From a virus (taxonomy: Duplodnaviria; Caudoviricetes), in IMG/VR virus record IMGVR_UViG_2871003000_000003, positions 1 through 64,000 of that record: DNA of 64,000 bases; one strand, written 5' to 3'. Both the position numbers and the translations under genes were made by a program. This document shows positions 59,065 through 64,000 of this stretch, one piece after another. The notes under the pieces were generated by a model. The model was not told the DNA's origin. It did not search any database and saw nothing but the letters and a program-made list of their open reading frames with translations. Within the stretch, counting starts at the first letter, position 1, and every line of letters starts with the position of its first letter.

Positions 59065-60674
59065 TCATGATTCTTCCTCACTCCAATCCAATCTCTGACC
59101 GCAATGATTGCAGCAATCAAAATCCCAATAACGAAGCATTTTTATATCTGCCATATTTCCAAACAGCTTTTTGCATCCAGGACACGATGCTTGTCCATTC
59201 CAGTTTTCTACTTTCTTCGGCAACTGCTTTTCCAGTGCTTCGATTGCGATATCTAATGATTCTCGCAACATATAATATCCGCTTGTAGGATAATTCGCTT
59301 TTATTACTTCTATCGCTTCTCTAACTTTCTTCTCGTTCATATTTATAATCACTCCAACAATTCTTCTCTAAATCTATTACTAACAATCCCAACCATTTTA
59401 TCTAATGAACTTTCATTTATATCACGAAATATCATATATGCATGTTTATTTGTATGATAATTGTTCAATCTTACTTCAAATTCGTCATTAAATGGATAAT
59501 ATCGTATTGAGACTATCACTGACGAATTATTTTTTTAAAATTGTTTAACTGTTCCGTCCATCTTCCATCACCAAAATTCCTTCATCAATCAAATAGTTTA
59601 CTGTTCCCAACAACCCTTCCTGTGTTTTTAAATCTAATTCATTTTCAATATCTTTCTCTTGATAAAATTTATCAAACTTATATGTACACATTCCACCAAA
59701 GCAATCACATCTTGTATGAACTCTTTTATTGTAATATGGCTTATCATAAATACCTATCCAAATATCGTTATTTGCTCCATACTTTACATCCCGATCTGTT
59801 CCAATAAACTTGCTAATACACCATGCATTGATAACATTATTTCTCCAAAACAGCGGTTCCTTAATCTTTGATTCATCTCCTACACTGAGCTTGTTAATCT
59901 TTTTCATGGTAAGATTGTATTTATTCTCAACTTTAGGTTTCCTCATTCTTTTCACTCTCTTTATTTTTAGTATTTTCAGTATCCATAAAACAATTTACAC
60001 ATGCATCGATCCATTCTCCACCTTCATCCACGTAATAATCATCACCATATATTCTACACTCGTCACAATAGTCATATAAATCATCTAAATAATCGTAATT
60101 ACACATTTCTCTTTCCCGGCTTTCCACTTAATAAATTTCCATCTTCATCTCTGTCATATTTCCACATCAAATAATCGCACCAATTGTCTTTATCGAAATC
60201 ACTCATGTTGTAAAACGGATCAGAATCATCTATAACATATTGCTTGTCAAATCCTTTAATTTTCACATTCACATCATCTACAATAACTCTTTTTGATAAT
60301 CTACAAATCCATTTCATAAATTCCTGAAATGTATCTTCAAATTCTCTATCACGTAATGCACCATCAACAACAAGAATATATTCGTCTTGTGTATGTAACC
60401 AACCACGTTTATAACTTCTTCTTCCTCTTGAATCTCTTAAGTTATTTGTTCCCTCAAAAAATTCATCGCTACTGCTTGAGCTGTTATATCCTCTTTTTTG
60501 AATCACATATACTTCCATATCTCTTTCTGATCCAGTTACAACCGGAAGATGATCAAGAACAGTTTCAAGAATATACCTTTTCTCGTGTTGTGTTCTGCCT
60601 AATGGTGATACAACAATTGTTCCATGTACATATGTCCAGCTACTCATTTTTACACCTCTTTTAATATTAATCAC
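59065..60674 (-). CDS. hypothetical proteins (59065-59352 Zn ribbon, 59545-59955, 59933-60127, 60099-60674)
   Basis: Co-oriented ORFs. Confidence 0.6.
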
Positions 60675-60892
60675 ATCGGTATTTACGATCTTATATCACA
60701 TGCTGTTCACAAATATTTTCAAATAGCGACAAATGAAATAGTTTGTTGAATCAACGTTTACAGTTTCTAAATATTTGATTTACTGCAGGTGATATTTGAT
60801 TATAAACACCGATGAAAATCATATGCAGAACTTTATGTATCTTATTTTATTGAGGGTATGAAACATGTATAGAAATTTATTCCGCATATGAA

Positions 60893-60963
60893 TTGTGAAT
60901 AAAGGATTCGAACCTTTTCTAATGCTATATACCGCATCGTGCTACCATTTACACTAATCCACA
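60893..60963 (-). tRNA. tRNA-like element / pseudo-tRNA with aberrant anticodon arm
   Basis: Acceptor TGTGGAT/ATTCACA, D arm GTGT-AAATGGTA-GCAC, T arm AAAGG-TTCGAAT-CCTTT; anticodon arm ATGC-GGTATATA-GCAT; no encoded CCA. Confidence 0.7.
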
Positions 60964-60971
60964 ACTATCTT

Positions 60972-61154
60972 TTAATTAAAACTTCTATAGAAATCTCCTG
61001 TCTTATCAATACTTCTGCAAACCATGGAGTCAATTTCTCGTTTCATTTCTTCACCACATTCCGGACACATATGTCCTTCGCCTGTATACTCTTTCATCGA
61101 CATTGTAATAGTTTCTTTGTGCCCACATTTCGGACAATAGAATGGATATTTCAT
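60972..61154 (-). CDS. FmdB-like zinc ribbon protein
   Basis: YPFYCPKCGH...CPECGEEMKR. Confidence 0.75.
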   Translation of the reverse strand: MKYPFYCPKCGHKETITMSMKEYTGEGHMCPECGEEMKREIDSMVCRSIDKTGDFYRSFN

Positions 61155-61173
61155 ATTATTTATTTCTCTCCTT

Positions 61174-61548
61174 TTAGCCTTCTAACATTCTCAATTCCAT
61201 AACAAGAGCTGTAAGTTCTATCTCATTCTTTTTGATTAACGACTTAAGTTCATTGATTTTATCAATACGTTTTTTCTCTTCTTTTTTTCTCTTCATATAT
61301 GCATTCATATTAACAACGCCGACTACCTGAGCTGTAGGATTTTCGCCATATACACTCACAGGTAAAATTACTTTTACCTTTCCTAATACTCTCCTATCTT
61401 TGTTTCTTGCATTTACAACCACAAGTGTATTATTCAAATTTGCTGTTCTAAGTAATTCATATTCTTCCTTATATAATGCAAATCCATAATCTTTTTTGTT
61501 ATGGTCTTCTAGTAAGTTCACAATTGCTACTAAATCATATCCTGTCAT
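61174..61548 (-). CDS. hypothetical protein
   Basis: AAGGAG SD, 124 aa. Confidence 0.7.
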   Translation of the reverse strand: MTGYDLVAIVNLLEDHNKKDYGFALYKEEYELLRTANLNNTLVVVNARNKDRRVLGKVKVILPVSVYGENPTAQVVGVVNMNAYMKRKKEEKKRIDKINELKSLIKKNEIELTALVMELRMLEG

Positions 61549-61659
61549 AGTTTTATTCTCCTTTTTAATCTAATAATTCTTTATCGATAATCTGTTTCCA
61601 TCCTTATATTTGTATAAATTACATCTTTTTCTATTTTTTATAATGCAGCTTTCGATCGC

Positions 61660-61889
61660 ATTTCAATCCTCATACTAATGTAAACTACATCTCCATTCCA
61701 TTCAGAAGTTCACAGGTGATATGCAATTTAAATCCTCATACTTATGTAAACTACATCATACAATGCCCCTGCTATGTTCTCATCTGTTTGCGATTTCAAT
61801 CCTCATACTTATGTAAACTACATCTTATTAAATCAGATGTTATTAAAACATACGGGTATTTCAATCCTCATACTTATGTAAACTACATC
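61660..61889 (-). CRISPR. CRISPR mini-array, 4 x 32-bp repeats, 3 spacers (34, 35, 33 bp)
   Basis: Repeats at 61660-61691, 61726-61757, 61793-61824, 61858-61889; minus-strand consensus GATGTAGTTTACATAAGTATGAGGATTGAAAT; the two leader-distal copies each carry one substitution. Confidence 0.95.
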
Positions 61890-62096
61890 ATCAAAAATAC
61901 ACAAATATGACATATCTATTTTATGTAACTTACACAATTCTAAGGTTACAAAAGCGTTATCCGTTTTCGTATATGTAAATAAATGATTACTACTCACTGA
62001 TTTCTTTTATCTACTTTAGTGCGAATAAACCGTATAACTTATGTTCACTTCATATTCGCACATGGCGGCGTTGAACCTGCAACCATGTATATGTAT
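61890..62096 (-). promoter_or_regulatory. CRISPR leader / possible RNA scaffold
   Basis: AT-rich 207 bp with 9-bp inverted repeat GTGCGAATA/TATTCGCAC (62019-62061) and further hairpins. Confidence 0.7.
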
Positions 62097-63501
62097 TTAA
62101 GCTATTTGCTTCTTATATTCTTTCTCTTTAGCCATATTCAAAATATTAATTGCAGCATTAATGTCTCTATCATGAATCGCTCCACATTCAGGACAAATCC
62201 AGCCTCTTATTTTTGTATCTTTTGTTTTTACGTTCACAAAACCACATTTACTGCATGTTTGTGTTGATTTTTTATATTGTCCAATTGCAACAACAGGTAC
62301 ACCATATTCTTCACCTTTTCTTTTTAATAAAGTAAGAATTTCTCCCATCGCCGCATCAGATAAATTATCATTTCTCACTCTTGTTTTTCTTGACATACAT
62401 ATCTTTAACCGACAAAGTTTCTATTCCAATAAAGTCTGATCTTTTTATAACTTCTAACACCATATTCTCCATATGATATTTTCTTTGTCGTGTTACCTTT
62501 CTTTCTAATTTTGCTTTTTTAACTTTTGTTTCTATGTATCTTTTAGAAGGCTTTAATTCAACATTTTCTTTTCTTAATTCACTTAACCTTTTCCTAAACT
62601 CAATATTGCTATACCCTTGCCTTCTGGATAATTGTCTATTTAACATCTCACGATGTTGACGAACACTTCCGTCTTTACCATTTTTGAATCTAGGATTATC
62701 ATATTTTGTTCCGTCTGATAAAGTCATCAAAGTTGAAATTCCAACATCAATTCCAATTTCTCTTTTCTCTTCTTCTACTTTCACAATCTTATAAATATCT
62801 TTCATACATAGCTGTAAAAAGTAATCACCACAATTATCTTTTTTTACAGTTGTTAATATTTGTTGTTTCTTATGTAAATTCACATATTCTTCAAAATTCA
62901 TCGTGCATGATGAATCAAACCAGATATTTTTTAGGCATCCTTTAATCCCCCTAATCTTTACCTTTCCGATTTTAGCTAAATTAAAATATGCTACATTTTT
63001 ATTCTCATCATTAAAGCTCATTTTTCTCAGAAATTCTTGATATGTATAACTTGTTCTCGGATGTTTCTTTGAATAATATGGAGGTTTACTGTTCTCAATC
63101 GGTCTTTTAACTCCCTTTCCGTTTGTTTTCTTATTAGAATTTTCTCCACTCACTTGAGCATCCAATCGCTTCGACAAATCACACAAGAAAACTCCATTCT
63201 CACCAGACAAAGCACCCGCTGGAATCAATTTAATGTCTTCTCTCCTACTTCTTAACACATCCAAATACTGTTTCTTTGCAATAGACTTTACATCCGGAAA
63301 ATGAACAGTTTGTCCTCCATTCTTTTTGTCTGGTCTTTCAATTGTATTAACTTTATTTTCAAACATATCATAAACAGCCATATTACATGCTTTATGTAAA
63401 GCTAAGATAATTCTATCTATTAATTCACTCTGTTCTTTATTTGGATACATTCTAAAATTGAAAGTATACACCGGTATTTTTATAACTTTTTCAACTAGCA
63501 T
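62097..63501 (-). CDS. TnpB-derived / Cas12f-like type V effector, about 467 aa if the one-base frameshift near 62397 is corrected
   Basis: N-terminal FRMYPNKEQ; RuvC-I GIDVG, RuvC-II IETL, Zn finger CSKC/CPEC, RuvC-III DRDINAA; AAGGAGG SD; adjacent array. Confidence 0.85.
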
Positions 63502-64000
63502 TTAACCAGACCTCCTTTTGCGACATTTCATAATTTAGTGTGTTTACAAAATCTTCTATTGCACACAAACAATATTTTGCATATTGCTTTGATTCCACAA
63601 TTAAATAGAAATCATCCATGTATCTTCCATAATATTTGACACCCAACTCTCCAGTTATAAAATGATCAAAACCAGACAAATATAATAAAGCAAATACCTG
63701 ACTAACTTGATTTCCAAGAGGCAAGCCATTTCCGCTTGTGCTATCAATAAATTTTTCACATAACCAGTACGTATCTGGATTAGATATAAAATATGAAACA
63801 ATATCTTTCAGAATATTATGATCAATATTATAGAAAAATTTTTTAATATCACCTTTAATAATCCAACAATCATATCCGTATTTCTGATATGCTAAATACA
63901 TTTGATATTTCAGACAATCCAAACCAAACAATGTTCCTTTTCCTATTTGTCCGGCATAATTCGTATATATAAATTCATTACTTAAAATAGGAAGAAGCAC
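63491..64000 (-). CDS. DGR-type reverse transcriptase; start lies outside the window, C-terminus appears truncated
   Basis: GKGT, KGDIKKFF..IDH, GLPLGNQVSQ (GxxxSQ), YGRYMDD; stops about 40 aa after YMDD. Confidence 0.85.
   Translation of the reverse strand: MLLPILSNEFIYTNYAGQIGKGTLFGLDCLKYQMYLAYQKYGYDCWIIKGDIKKFFYNIDHNILKDIVSYFISNPDTYWLCEKFIDSTSGNGLPLGNQVSQVFALLYLSGFDHFITGELGVKYYGRYMDDFYLIVESKQYAKYCLCAIEDFVNTLNYEMSQKEVWLNAS

What the first reader, a model, noticed from the sequence alone, without database searches (positions are those of the whole stretch)
61660..63501. Phage-borne minimal type V CRISPR system: TnpB/Cas12f-like nuclease, leader and 3-spacer array, no adaptation genes
Seen: a TnpB-fold gene with all three RuvC acidic residues and a Zn finger is followed 207 bp downstream by a co-oriented array of four 32-bp repeats ending ATTGAAAT, with degeneration only at the distal end. 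No tnpA, cas1 or cas2 in the window. The repaired protein (about 467 aa) retains a TnpB-like N-terminus but is longer than typical TnpB. Known: Cas12 effectors arose repeatedly from TnpB, and large phages can carry compact CRISPR loci. Inference: this may be an independent, recent TnpB-to-CRISPR transition used for inter-phage competition or host targeting.
Basis: partly seen in the sequence, partly recalled or inferred. Interest (0 to 1): 0.93.

Follow-up and report, generated by a model that had tools for sequence, protein, structure and literature searches.

The report
Phage TranC CRISPR with split nuclease
A 165-kb gut phage carries a miniature transposon-derived CRISPR system of the recently described TranC kind. 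Its DNA-cutting enzyme is naturally split into two genes, its spacers target a rival plasmid-like element, and its array looks built to be filled by the host's type I-C spacer-acquisition machinery.

Summary
On the minus strand lie a TnpB-like nuclease gene, a 207-nt non-coding scaffold, and a CRISPR array of four good 32-nt repeats plus a decayed fifth. The whole 165-kb phage has no cas1, cas2, cas4 or tnpA.

It is not an independent, recent TnpB-to-CRISPR transition. The protein aligns colinearly with the solved LaTranC (E 4e-39 and 6e-22). Relatives down to about 31% identity keep the same nuclease-scaffold-array layout, mostly on phage-like or IMG/VR viral contigs. This scan has reported phage TranC loci on other DNA before.

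Three points go beyond a routine new member:
- **The "frameshift" is a conserved split.** The nuclease is encoded by two overlapping ORFs (377 + 99 aa). ORF2 keeps its own start codon in every lineage, the overlap geometry differs between lineages, and ORF2 dN/dS is 0.03-0.2.
- **The array is active and aimed at a rival element.** A phage with an identical nuclease differs only in the leader-proximal spacer. Four spacers match a TubZ/ArdC-bearing element of about 40 kb, each with a 5'-TTC flank.
- **The array ends resemble type I-C arrays.** The leader end and both repeat ends match bona fide type I-C arrays of Clostridia, and TTC is also the I-C PAM. This suggests, but does not show, spacer loading by the host.

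Verdict: a new variant of a known kind.

The parts
62368..63501 (-). Nuclease ORF1 (377 aa): WED/REC-like N-terminus plus RuvC-I (D) and RuvC-II (E). Its start overlaps the end of the upstream reverse-transcriptase ORF by 11 nt.
   Evidence: Pfam OrfB_IS605 E 3.9e-13. Residues 4-369 align to LaTranC 4-384, E 3.8e-39. E361 is invariant and D252 nearly invariant in 20 relatives.
62097..62396 (-). Nuclease ORF2 (99 aa): TNB zinc finger plus RuvC-III (D). It has its own ATG, is in the +1 frame relative to ORF1, and overlaps it by 29 nt.
   Evidence: Pfam Cas12f1-like_TNB E 8.8e-21. Residues 12-93 align to LaTranC 393-474, E 6e-22. Four Cys and the H-D-R-D motif are invariant. dN/dS is 0.03-0.2. 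The start codon is conserved in all split lineages.
61890..62096 (-). Non-coding scaffold (tracrRNA / transposon right-end-RNA remnant) that also serves as leader.
   Evidence: Conserved in all 17 relatives aligned. 88% of cells are paired and 31 of 41 pairs show compensatory changes.
62064..62084 (-). Hairpin 1 of the scaffold. Five bases of its 9-nt loop (TTCAA) pair with the repeat tail to form a pseudoknot.
   Evidence: All 5 pseudoknot pairs change on both sides across lineages and are 100% paired in 17 sequences.
62020..62060 (-). Hairpin 2 of the scaffold (8-bp stem).
   Evidence: Helix 3: 87% paired, 4 pairs with compensatory change.
61948..62010 (-). Long-range helix of the scaffold (7 bp) enclosing a variable hairpin region.
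   Evidence: Helix 4: 91% paired, 6 of 7 pairs with compensatory change.
61923..61937 (-). Anti-repeat: 15 nt complementary to the 5' half of the repeat.
   Evidence: RNAduplex -13.2 kcal/mol, matched or beaten by 4 of 200 shuffled repeats. It sits 30-44 nt upstream of repeat 1 in all lineages. 13 of 15 pairs covary.
61890..61903 (-). Leader end: a T-rich motif directly upstream of repeat 1.
   Evidence: Aligns with the leader ends of 8 bona fide type I-C arrays; 9 of 12 I-C leader ends carry the motif.
61858..61889 (-). Repeat 1 (leader-proximal).
61825..61857 (-). Spacer 1 (33 nt), the newest. It is replaced by a different spacer in the otherwise identical array of L007.
   Evidence: Perfect match inside an ArdC-like gene of IMG/VR contigs, with 5'-TTC directly upstream.
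61793..61824 (-). Repeat 2.
61758..61792 (-). Spacer 2 (35 nt).
   Evidence: 0-1 mismatch to four IMG/VR contigs, 5'-TTC flank, inside a YkyB-like gene.
61726..61757 (-). Repeat 3 (1 mismatch).
61692..61725 (-). Spacer 3 (34 nt).
   Evidence: 1 mismatch to the same four contigs, 5'-TTC flank.
61660..61691 (-). Repeat 4 (1 mismatch).
61626..61659 (-). Spacer 4 (34 nt), the oldest. No target was searched for in IMG/VR.
61594..61625 (-). Repeat 5: the decayed terminal repeat (7 mismatches).

Best explanation
The locus is a working, phage-borne TranC-type system: a TnpB-derived, Cas12-like RNA-guided DNA nuclease with a CRISPR array.

Proposed mechanism:
1. One minus-strand transcript carries ORF1, ORF2, the scaffold and the array.
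2. ORF1 (RuvC-I/II and the RNA- and DNA-binding lobes) and ORF2 (zinc finger and RuvC-III) are translated as two polypeptides that assemble into one RuvC nuclease.
3. The 207-nt scaffold acts as a tracrRNA. Its anti-repeat pairs with the 5' half of each repeat, and the loop of its first hairpin pairs with the repeat tail just upstream of the spacer.
4. The resulting guide directs cleavage of DNA that carries a 5'-TTC PAM.
5. The present spacers aim at a ~40-kb TubZ/ArdC-bearing plasmid-like element, a likely competitor in the same Lachnospiraceae-type host.
6. New spacers enter at the scaffold-proximal end. Because the leader end, the repeat ends, the spacer length and the PAM all match type I-C arrays, the host's I-C Cas1-Cas2-Cas4 most probably does this in trans.

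Shown here: the anatomy, homology to LaTranC, RNA covariation, selection on ORF2, spacer turnover, the targets and their TTC flank, and the resemblance to I-C arrays.

Inferred: assembly of the two subunits, cleavage, and who inserts the spacers.
For: **Homology.** ORF1 and ORF2 align end to end with LaTranC (PDB 9jfo/9jfq), E 3.8e-39 and 6e-22. ISDra2 TnpB scores only E 0.012 for ORF1.

**Conserved locus.** The scaffold and array follow the gene at the same place in:
- the close relatives L007 and L009-L012;
- loci with 66-45% identical proteins: L134, L138-L140, L142, L145, L146, L149, L151;
- IMG/VR relatives at 62-31%: L194-L199, L216.

Generic TnpBs at ~25% identity have no array.

**RNA structure.** On 17 loci, 88.2% of cells are paired, against 35-45% when the partners are slid. 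31 of 41 pairs change on both sides, and no shuffle out of 500 reaches the observed values. The pseudoknot covaries at 5 of 5 pairs and the anti-repeat at 13 of 15 (duplex energies).

**Split gene.**
- About 40 protein clusters from 100% to 47% identity are 361-386 aa and match only the OrfB_IS605 family.
- ORF2 keeps its own start in every lineage. The overlap is 29 nt in the +1 frame in some lineages, a 4-nt stop/start overlap in the other frame in others, and a 14-nt overlap with a GTG start in another.
- ORF2 dN/dS is 0.03-0.2.
- In the tree, 37 of 45 members of one clade (support 99) are split.

**Array activity.**
- L007 has an identical nuclease and identical spacers 2-4 but a different spacer 1.
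- L010 equals L009 plus one leader-proximal spacer.
- L011 and L012 carry other spacers.

**Targets.** Spacers 1-3 and L007 spacer 1 match four IMG/VR contigs at 0-2 mismatches. All four have TTC directly 5' and lie on the same strand. The target carries TubZ, ArdC and a helicase. LaTranC also uses a 5'-TTC PAM.

**Type I-C link.**
- Arrays in Clostridia with this repeat ending lie 3-5 kb downstream of cas8c.
- Their leader ends and both repeat ends align with the phage arrays.
- The I-C PAM is TTC (PMC8406640, seen).

**No own adaptation or transposition genes.** No cas1, cas2, cas4 or tnpA in the phage.
Against:
- Assembly of the two subunits is untested.
- In the window's lineage I saw no clear Shine-Dalgarno sequence before the ORF2 start, read by eye. 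A frameshifted fusion product is therefore not excluded.
- The host is unknown, so it is not known whether it has a type I-C system.
- More distant family members (L149, L196, L197, L216) have repeat tails that differ from the I-C ending. The I-C likeness of the tail is therefore confined to the lineages that keep the TTGAA tail: the window's subclade down to 45% identity, except L149, plus L199.
- The tail is also constrained by the pseudoknot.
- TTC is LaTranC's own PAM, so the TTC flanks alone need no I-C explanation.
- No consensus promoter or terminator stands out.
Confidence: 0.8

Rival explanations
1. The nuclease is made as one ~467-aa chain by a programmed +1 ribosomal frameshift or transcriptional slippage in the A-rich overlap. 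The two-ORF appearance would then be a regulatory device, not a two-subunit enzyme.
For: The overlap contains A-runs: five A in the window and seven A in L009-L011. Unsplit sisters exist (P0018 at 457 aa and P0036 at 451 aa, each next to a split form), so one chain works. Read by eye, no strong ribosome-binding site precedes the ORF2 start in the window's lineage.
Against: The required shift differs between lineages: +1 with a 29-nt overlap in some, the other frame with a 4-nt stop/start overlap in others, and a 14-nt overlap with a GTG start in another. No slippery motif is shared, yet a start codon at the same residue is conserved everywhere. The 4-nt stop/start overlap is the classical sign of translational coupling of two products.
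Confidence: 0.15
2. The array is a phage 'mini-array' that serves the host's type I-C Cascade-Cas3, and the split TnpB-like gene next to it is a decaying relic.
For: The last ten bases of the repeat are those of Clostridia I-C repeats. The leader end, repeat length and spacer length also fit I-C. The TTC flank fits I-C. The nuclease gene is broken into two ORFs.
Against: Both ORFs are under purifying selection with all catalytic and zinc ligands kept. The repeat's 5' half covaries with an anti-repeat in the scaffold, and its tail covaries with a scaffold loop, which only makes sense if the scaffold RNA and the nuclease use these repeats. The GC-rich self-hairpin of I-C repeats is missing. Dual use by both effectors is not excluded.
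Confidence: 0.07
3. New spacers arrive without any Cas1-Cas2, by recombination between arrays of co-infecting related phages or by another unknown route. The resemblance to I-C leaders would be inherited from an old capture of an I-C array and no longer functional.
For: No adaptation genes lie in the phage. Arrays are short, 1-5 spacers. Orphan scaffold-array modules and tandem duplications show that recombination acts on these loci (L139, L143, L216). Distant members keep the leader motif even where the repeat tail has diverged from I-C.
Against: The two spacer-1 variants of the window and L007 are both unique, both hit the same target element and both have TTC, as expected from de novo acquisition with PAM selection. 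The leader-end motif is conserved across 31-100% protein identity, which argues for continuing selection.
Confidence: 0.3
4. An ordinary IS200/IS605 TnpB insertion with its omega RNA, next to chance tandem repeats.
For: Pfam names the domains OrfB_IS605 and Cas12f1-like_TNB.
Against: There is a single copy in the genome and no TnpA. The repeats have unique spacers that match a foreign element with a PAM. The layout is conserved across distant relatives in different genomic contexts.
Confidence: 0.01

Closest known systems
TranC (transposon-CRISPR intermediate) systems, in particular LaTranC. Source: Jin et al., Cell 2025, doi 10.1016/j.cell.2025.09.004, not held here. Known through PDB 9jfo/9jfq, bioRxiv 10.1101/2025.09.28.678669, bioRxiv 10.64898/2026.03.27.714800 and PMC13565253.
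   Same: - TnpB-derived RuvC effector colinear with LaTranC 4-474.
- Scaffold RNA between gene and array, with an anti-repeat.
- Short array of 32-33-nt repeats.
- No adaptation genes.
- 5'-TTC flank, the same as LaTranC's PAM.
- Phage-borne TranC is already reported (CauTranC9).
   Different: - The effector is split into two ORFs.
- It lacks the ~100-aa C-terminal extension of full-length LaTranC (575 aa).
- Identity to LaTranC is moderate (138 bits).
- The papers I could read do not mention I-C-like leader and repeat ends. The Cell paper itself was not read.
Type V-F Cas12f (Cas14) and Cas12n
   Same: Miniature TnpB-derived effectors with a tracrRNA and a 5' PAM. The Pfam TNB domain is shared.
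   Different: Only the C-terminal ~70 aa match, and weakly: E 5e-5 to 8e-4 for Cas12f chains and 9e-10 for Cas12n chain 9j09. ORF1 finds none of them.
IS200/IS605 TnpB with omega/right-end RNA (ISDra2 TnpB, PDB 8exa/8h1j)
   Same: RuvC plus zinc-finger core. The guide scaffold is encoded just downstream of the gene. A pseudoknot forms next to the guide.
   Different: No TnpA and a single copy. The guide part is replaced by a repeat-spacer array, and the scaffold pairs with the repeats in trans. ORF1 matches ISDra2 only at E 0.012.
Type I-C CRISPR arrays of Clostridia
   Same: 32-33-nt repeats and 33-36-nt spacers. The same first base and the same last ten bases of the repeat. The same T-rich leader end. 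TTC PAM (PMC8406640).
   Different: No cas8c, cas5, cas7, cas3, cas1, cas2 or cas4 in the phage. The GC-rich repeat hairpin is replaced by an AT-rich segment complementary to the scaffold.
Virus-borne mini-CRISPR arrays that use host Cas proteins (recalled from the literature, not checked here)
   Same: A short array in a virus, spacers against competing mobile elements, and reliance on host proteins for at least one step.
   Different: Here the virus brings its own effector and guide scaffold. Only adaptation is proposed to be borrowed.

Membership tests
TranC (transposon-CRISPR intermediate) | Effector is a TnpB-lineage RuvC nuclease related to characterised TranC proteins | tested here: met
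   ORF1 and ORF2 are colinear with LaTranC, E 3.8e-39 and 6e-22. Catalytic D, E, D and the four Cys are present.
TranC (transposon-CRISPR intermediate) | A CRISPR array with unique spacers is adjacent and co-oriented, and this is conserved in relatives | tested here: met
TranC (transposon-CRISPR intermediate) | Right-end-RNA-derived scaffold acting as tracrRNA, pairing with the repeat | tested here: met
   Covariation on 17 loci: the anti-repeat changes on both sides at 13 of 15 pairs and the pseudoknot at 5 of 5. No RNA data.
TranC (transposon-CRISPR intermediate) | Loss of the transposon lifestyle (no TnpA, not multicopy) | tested here: met
   No Y1 transposase and one copy in the 165-kb record. 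Transposon ends were not examined.
TranC (transposon-CRISPR intermediate) | RNA-guided, PAM-dependent DNA cleavage; use of both crRNA and single right-end RNA | not testable with these tools
   Only indirect: 4 of 4 protospacers carry 5'-TTC.
TranC (transposon-CRISPR intermediate) | Assignment to a numbered published clade | not testable with these tools
   The clade sequences of Jin et al. are not held. Repeat length and likeness to LaTranC fit the clade that has a long C-terminal domain, but that domain is missing here.
IS200/IS605 TnpB transposon | TnpA partner or multiple copies, and a single omega RNA whose guide is the flanking DNA | tested here: not met
   The scaffold is followed by a repeat-spacer array.
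Type V-F (Cas12f) | Sequence membership in the Cas12f family | tested here: not met
   ORF1 finds no Cas12f chain. ORF2 finds them only at E 5e-5 or weaker.
Type I-C CRISPR-Cas | Repeat and leader of the I-C class | tested here: inconclusive
   The leader end, first base and last ten bases agree. The central hairpin does not.
Type I-C CRISPR-Cas | cas8c, cas5c, cas7, cas3 and cas1-cas2-cas4 next to the array | tested here: not met
   No Cas1, Cas2 or Cas4 in the phage. The neighbours of the array are a reverse transcriptase and small phage ORFs. Cas8c, Cas5, Cas7 and Cas3 were not searched in the phage.

The most novel reading that the evidence does not exclude
Two linked readings remain open. 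First, the effector is an obligate two-subunit RuvC nuclease: a natural split Cas12-like enzyme kept for a long evolutionary time in phages. Second, the phage arms it by parasitising the host's type I-C adaptation machinery. The array offers an I-C-type leader-repeat junction, receives TTC-selected spacers of I-C length, and hands them to a nuclease that reads the same TTC PAM. This would explain how minimal type V/TranC loci without cas1-cas2 stay adaptive. It would also suggest that a borrowed class 1 array, grafted onto a transposon guide RNA, was the route from TnpB to CRISPR in this lineage.
Probability: 0.35. Interest if true: 0.8.

Novelty: new variant of a known kind. Interest (0 to 1): 0.6.

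Why it matters
TranC systems were published in 2025 as the missing step between transposon TnpB and Cas12. How such loci gain spacers without adaptation genes is open.

This locus gives a concrete, testable answer. Its leader end, repeat ends, spacer length and PAM match the hosts' type I-C system, and near-identical phages differ by one leader-proximal spacer.

It also offers a natural two-piece version of a LaTranC-like editor, 377 + 99 aa. The split point has been tested by evolution, which is of practical interest for split-delivery designs.

Finally, it documents a real conflict: a large gut phage aiming an RNA-guided nuclease at a TubZ/ArdC plasmid-like element.

Tried and rejected
- **Rfam scan of 60500-64000.** It found only the tRNA, no known RNA family for scaffold or repeat.
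- **Array against cultured phages (INPHARED) and against the phage's own genome.** No significant protospacer and no self-targeting.
- **Spacers of the other family members against all DNA held in the session.** Nothing beyond the window's own spacers.
- **Target element against PLSDB and INPHARED.** No close relative. A TubZ homologue at 61% identity is named from Kineothrix, a member of the Lachnospiraceae, which is only a weak host hint.
- **ORF1 against 399 sampled Clostridia genomes.** No match at E 1e-20, so co-occurrence with I-C could not be tested.
- **Consensus promoter and terminator scan.** Nothing above shuffles.
- **The idea that the TnpB module split the upstream reverse-transcriptase gene.** No RT-like C-terminal piece was seen downstream of the array.
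- **The idea of a single programmed frameshift.** Weakened by the different overlap geometries.
Full report
**What is there**

The window is the first 64 kb of a 165,772-bp IMG/VR virus record with about 31% G+C. All the parts below lie on the minus strand.

- **ORF1** (62368-63501, 377 aa) matches Pfam OrfB_IS605.
- **ORF2** (62097-62396, 99 aa) matches Cas12f1-like_TNB. It overlaps ORF1 by 29 nt in the +1 frame.
- **A non-coding stretch** of 207 nt follows (61890-62096).
- **The array** has four 32-nt repeats with at most one mismatch, and a fifth, decayed copy at 61594-61625. They separate four spacers of 33-35 nt.

The repeat occurs nowhere else in the record. Cas1, Cas2, Cas4 and Y1 TnpA are not found anywhere in the 165 kb, and there is only one TnpB-like gene. 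Two corrections apply: there are four spacers, not three, and the gene needs no repair.

**What the protein is**

Against all PDB sequences, the best match is LaTranC, a published transposon-CRISPR intermediate.

- ORF1 residues 4-369 align to LaTranC 4-384 (E 3.8e-39).
- ORF2 residues 12-93 align to LaTranC 393-474 (E 6e-22).
- ISDra2 TnpB scores only E 0.012 for ORF1.
- Cas12f chains match only the zinc-finger end, and weakly.

The two ORFs together correspond to LaTranC without its roughly 100-residue C-terminal extension. RuvC D and E lie in ORF1. The third D and the four Cys lie in ORF2. All are conserved.

TranC systems are described as TnpB descendants whose right-end RNA has split into tracrRNA and crRNA. 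They have short arrays of about 32-38-nt repeats and no adaptation genes nearby. One phage-borne example is known, and LaTranC uses a 5'-TTC PAM. The original Cell paper is not held.

**The gene-scaffold-array association is old**

The same layout is found in every relative I could fetch with flanking DNA, apart from L148, a deletion variant.

- Phages of 157-164 kb with an 89% identical protein: L009-L012.
- Loci with 66-45% identical proteins: L134 in a Blautia caecimuris chromosome, L138-L140, L142, L145, L146, L149 and L151.
- IMG/VR contigs at 62-31% identity: L194-L199 and L216.

Generic TnpBs at about 25% identity have no array. This rules out an independent, recent transition.

**The RNA**

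I aligned 17 scaffolds together with their first repeat. I then tested a structure read from the window's sequence: three helices, an anti-repeat:repeat duplex, and a pseudoknot between the loop of hairpin 1 and the repeat tail.

| Measure | Result |
|---|---|
| Cells that form standard pairs | 88.2% |
| Same, with partners slid by 1-3 columns | 35-45% |
| Pairs that change on both sides | 31 of 41 |
| Shuffles reaching the observed values | 0 of 500 |
| Pseudoknot | 100% paired; 5 of 5 pairs covary |
| Anti-repeat helix | 13 of 15 pairs covary |

The pseudoknot pairing takes forms such as TTCAA:TTGAA, CCCAA:TTGGG and CACAA:TTGTG in different lineages.

The anti-repeat duplexes are 13-16 bp and sit 30-44 nt upstream of repeat 1. 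In the close clade, shuffled repeats rarely equal their energies.

One caveat: the structure was derived from one of the aligned sequences, which favours it over the slid controls. The compensatory changes do not suffer from this bias.

**The "frameshift" is a conserved split**

- In the protein search, about 40 clusters from 100% down to 47% identity are 361-386 aa long and match only the OrfB_IS605 family.
- Gene calls on their contigs show a separate ORF of about 97 aa with the TNB domain directly behind.
- The junctions differ between lineages. The overlap is 29 nt in the +1 frame in the window and L138 clades. It is a 4-nt stop/start overlap in the other frame in the L134/L146/L195 clade, and 14 nt with a GTG start in L149.
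- In every case ORF2 begins with a start codon at the same residue.
- ORF2 evolves under strong purifying selection, with dN/dS of 0.03-0.2 over dS up to more than 1. It is more conserved than ORF1.
- In a quick maximum-likelihood tree, one clade (support 99) holds 37 split forms, two unsplit forms each sister to a split one, and six long forms without the catalytic D. The sister clade is almost entirely unsplit.

I conclude that the nuclease is most likely made as two polypeptides that assemble (about 70%). A frameshifted fusion is the alternative (about 15%).

**The array is alive, and what it targets**

- L007 has an identical ORF1, an identical scaffold and identical spacers 2-4, but an unrelated spacer 1.
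- L010 equals L009 plus one scaffold-proximal spacer.
- L011 and L012 carry other spacers at the same site.

This is the polarity expected of CRISPR adaptation.

Exact scans of IMG/VR with the first 24 nt of spacers 1-3 found four contigs of 22-41 kb that are not arrays. Full-length comparison gave 0-1 mismatches, and L007's spacer 1 hits the same element with 2 mismatches. All four protospacers have TTC directly 5' on the spacer-identical strand, and all lie on the same strand.

The element encodes a TubZ-like partition GTPase, an ArdC-like anti-restriction protein (hit by spacer 1), a helicase and a YkyB-like protein (hit by spacer 2). It has no close relative in PLSDB or INPHARED. Its TubZ has a 61% identical homologue named from Kineothrix, a member of the Lachnospiraceae. 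Inter-element conflict is therefore supported.

**The type I-C resemblance**

In 401 sampled Clostridia genomes, 46 carry arrays whose repeats end in the same ten bases. The pattern also caught a second repeat class with a different body. The commonest repeats are 32-33 nt, start GTCGC, and have 33-36-nt spacers. In three of the five genomes checked, cas8c lies 3-5 kb upstream of such an array, so that class is type I-C.

Nine of twelve true I-C leader ends carry a T-rich motif that ends in GCT, GCC or GCA directly before the repeat. The phage arrays have the same motif. This holds even for the distant members L197 and L216.

In a joint alignment of 8 TranC and 8 I-C leader-repeat junctions, the following are invariant or nearly so:
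- several leader positions in the 15 bases before the repeat;
- the first base of the repeat;
- seven of the last ten bases of the repeat.

The central part differs. I-C repeats have a GC-rich self-hairpin there, while the phage repeats have an AT-rich segment complementary to the scaffold.

The I-C PAM is TTC (PMC8406640, abstract seen). Another first-stage note on this stretch (e1-5820944) had the same idea, which I tested as described.

I read this as an array whose integration site is compatible with the host's I-C Cas1-Cas2-Cas4, which would supply TTC-selected spacers to a TTC-reading nuclease. This is an inference, at about 40-50%.
- The host and its CRISPR type are unknown.
- The family was not found in 399 sampled Clostridia genomes, so co-occurrence could not be scored.
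- TTC is also LaTranC's own PAM.
- The repeat tail is independently constrained by the pseudoknot.

**Comparison and verdict**

The locus meets every testable defining feature of a TranC system. It fails the tests for an IS605 transposon, for Cas12f and for a type I-C locus.

The scan has already reported phage-borne TranC loci in at least 12 other genomes. Two of those reports say the repeats resemble the hosts' Cas13b repeat class, which is the same theme as the I-C likeness here.

It is therefore a new variant of a known kind. What is new is the long-lived split effector, the documented spacer turnover with identified targets and PAM, and the I-C-type leader and repeat ends.

Noticed in passing
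window 63491-64000 and beyond (G000 63491-65731; L005 2492-4731): A diversity-generating retroelement sits directly upstream in the same orientation: a 254-aa target protein with a C-terminal variable region, an Avd-like 134-aa ORF, a template region, and a reverse transcriptase of only 261 aa. The RT ends about 30 residues after its YMDD motif and overlaps the nuclease start by 11 nt. It may be truncated.
   Followed up: partly
window 60892-60964 (-): A tRNA gene (Rfam 46 bits) for which ARAGORN reports no normal anticodon assignment ('tRNA-???').
   Followed up: no
L142 4001-5326; L143 2597-5700: A subclade of 440-448-aa unsplit relatives (P0010-P0014) has lost the RuvC-I aspartate and the zinc finger but keeps scaffolds and multi-spacer arrays. 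L143 carries three arrays and two scaffolds. These are possibly nuclease-dead, DNA-binding-only TranC derivatives.
   Followed up: partly
L139 5745-6130; L216 4450-4890: Orphan second scaffold-plus-array modules lie in tandem behind the first, without a second nuclease gene.
   Followed up: no
L199 3902-4700: In this 32% identical relative, the first guide is fused directly to a shortened scaffold (a single-guide form). Ordinary repeats follow it. A second array with 36-nt repeats of a different class lies about 200 nt further on.
   Followed up: no
L148 4131-4620: A deletion variant of the L146 locus. ORF2 is truncated, and the scaffold and array are replaced by a DNA-methylase-like gene.
   Followed up: no
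L134-L137, L145-L147 (flanks of the nuclease): In related phages the module sits among likely counter-defence genes: Tad8, NAMPT/NAPRTase/PRPP-synthetase-like genes and an isochorismatase.
   Followed up: no
L268 6000-13000; L270 5535-6377: The targeted element (IMG/VR contigs of 22-41 kb) combines a TubZ-type partition GTPase with an ArdC-like anti-restriction protein. This looks more like a plasmid or phage-plasmid than a typical phage.
   Followed up: partly
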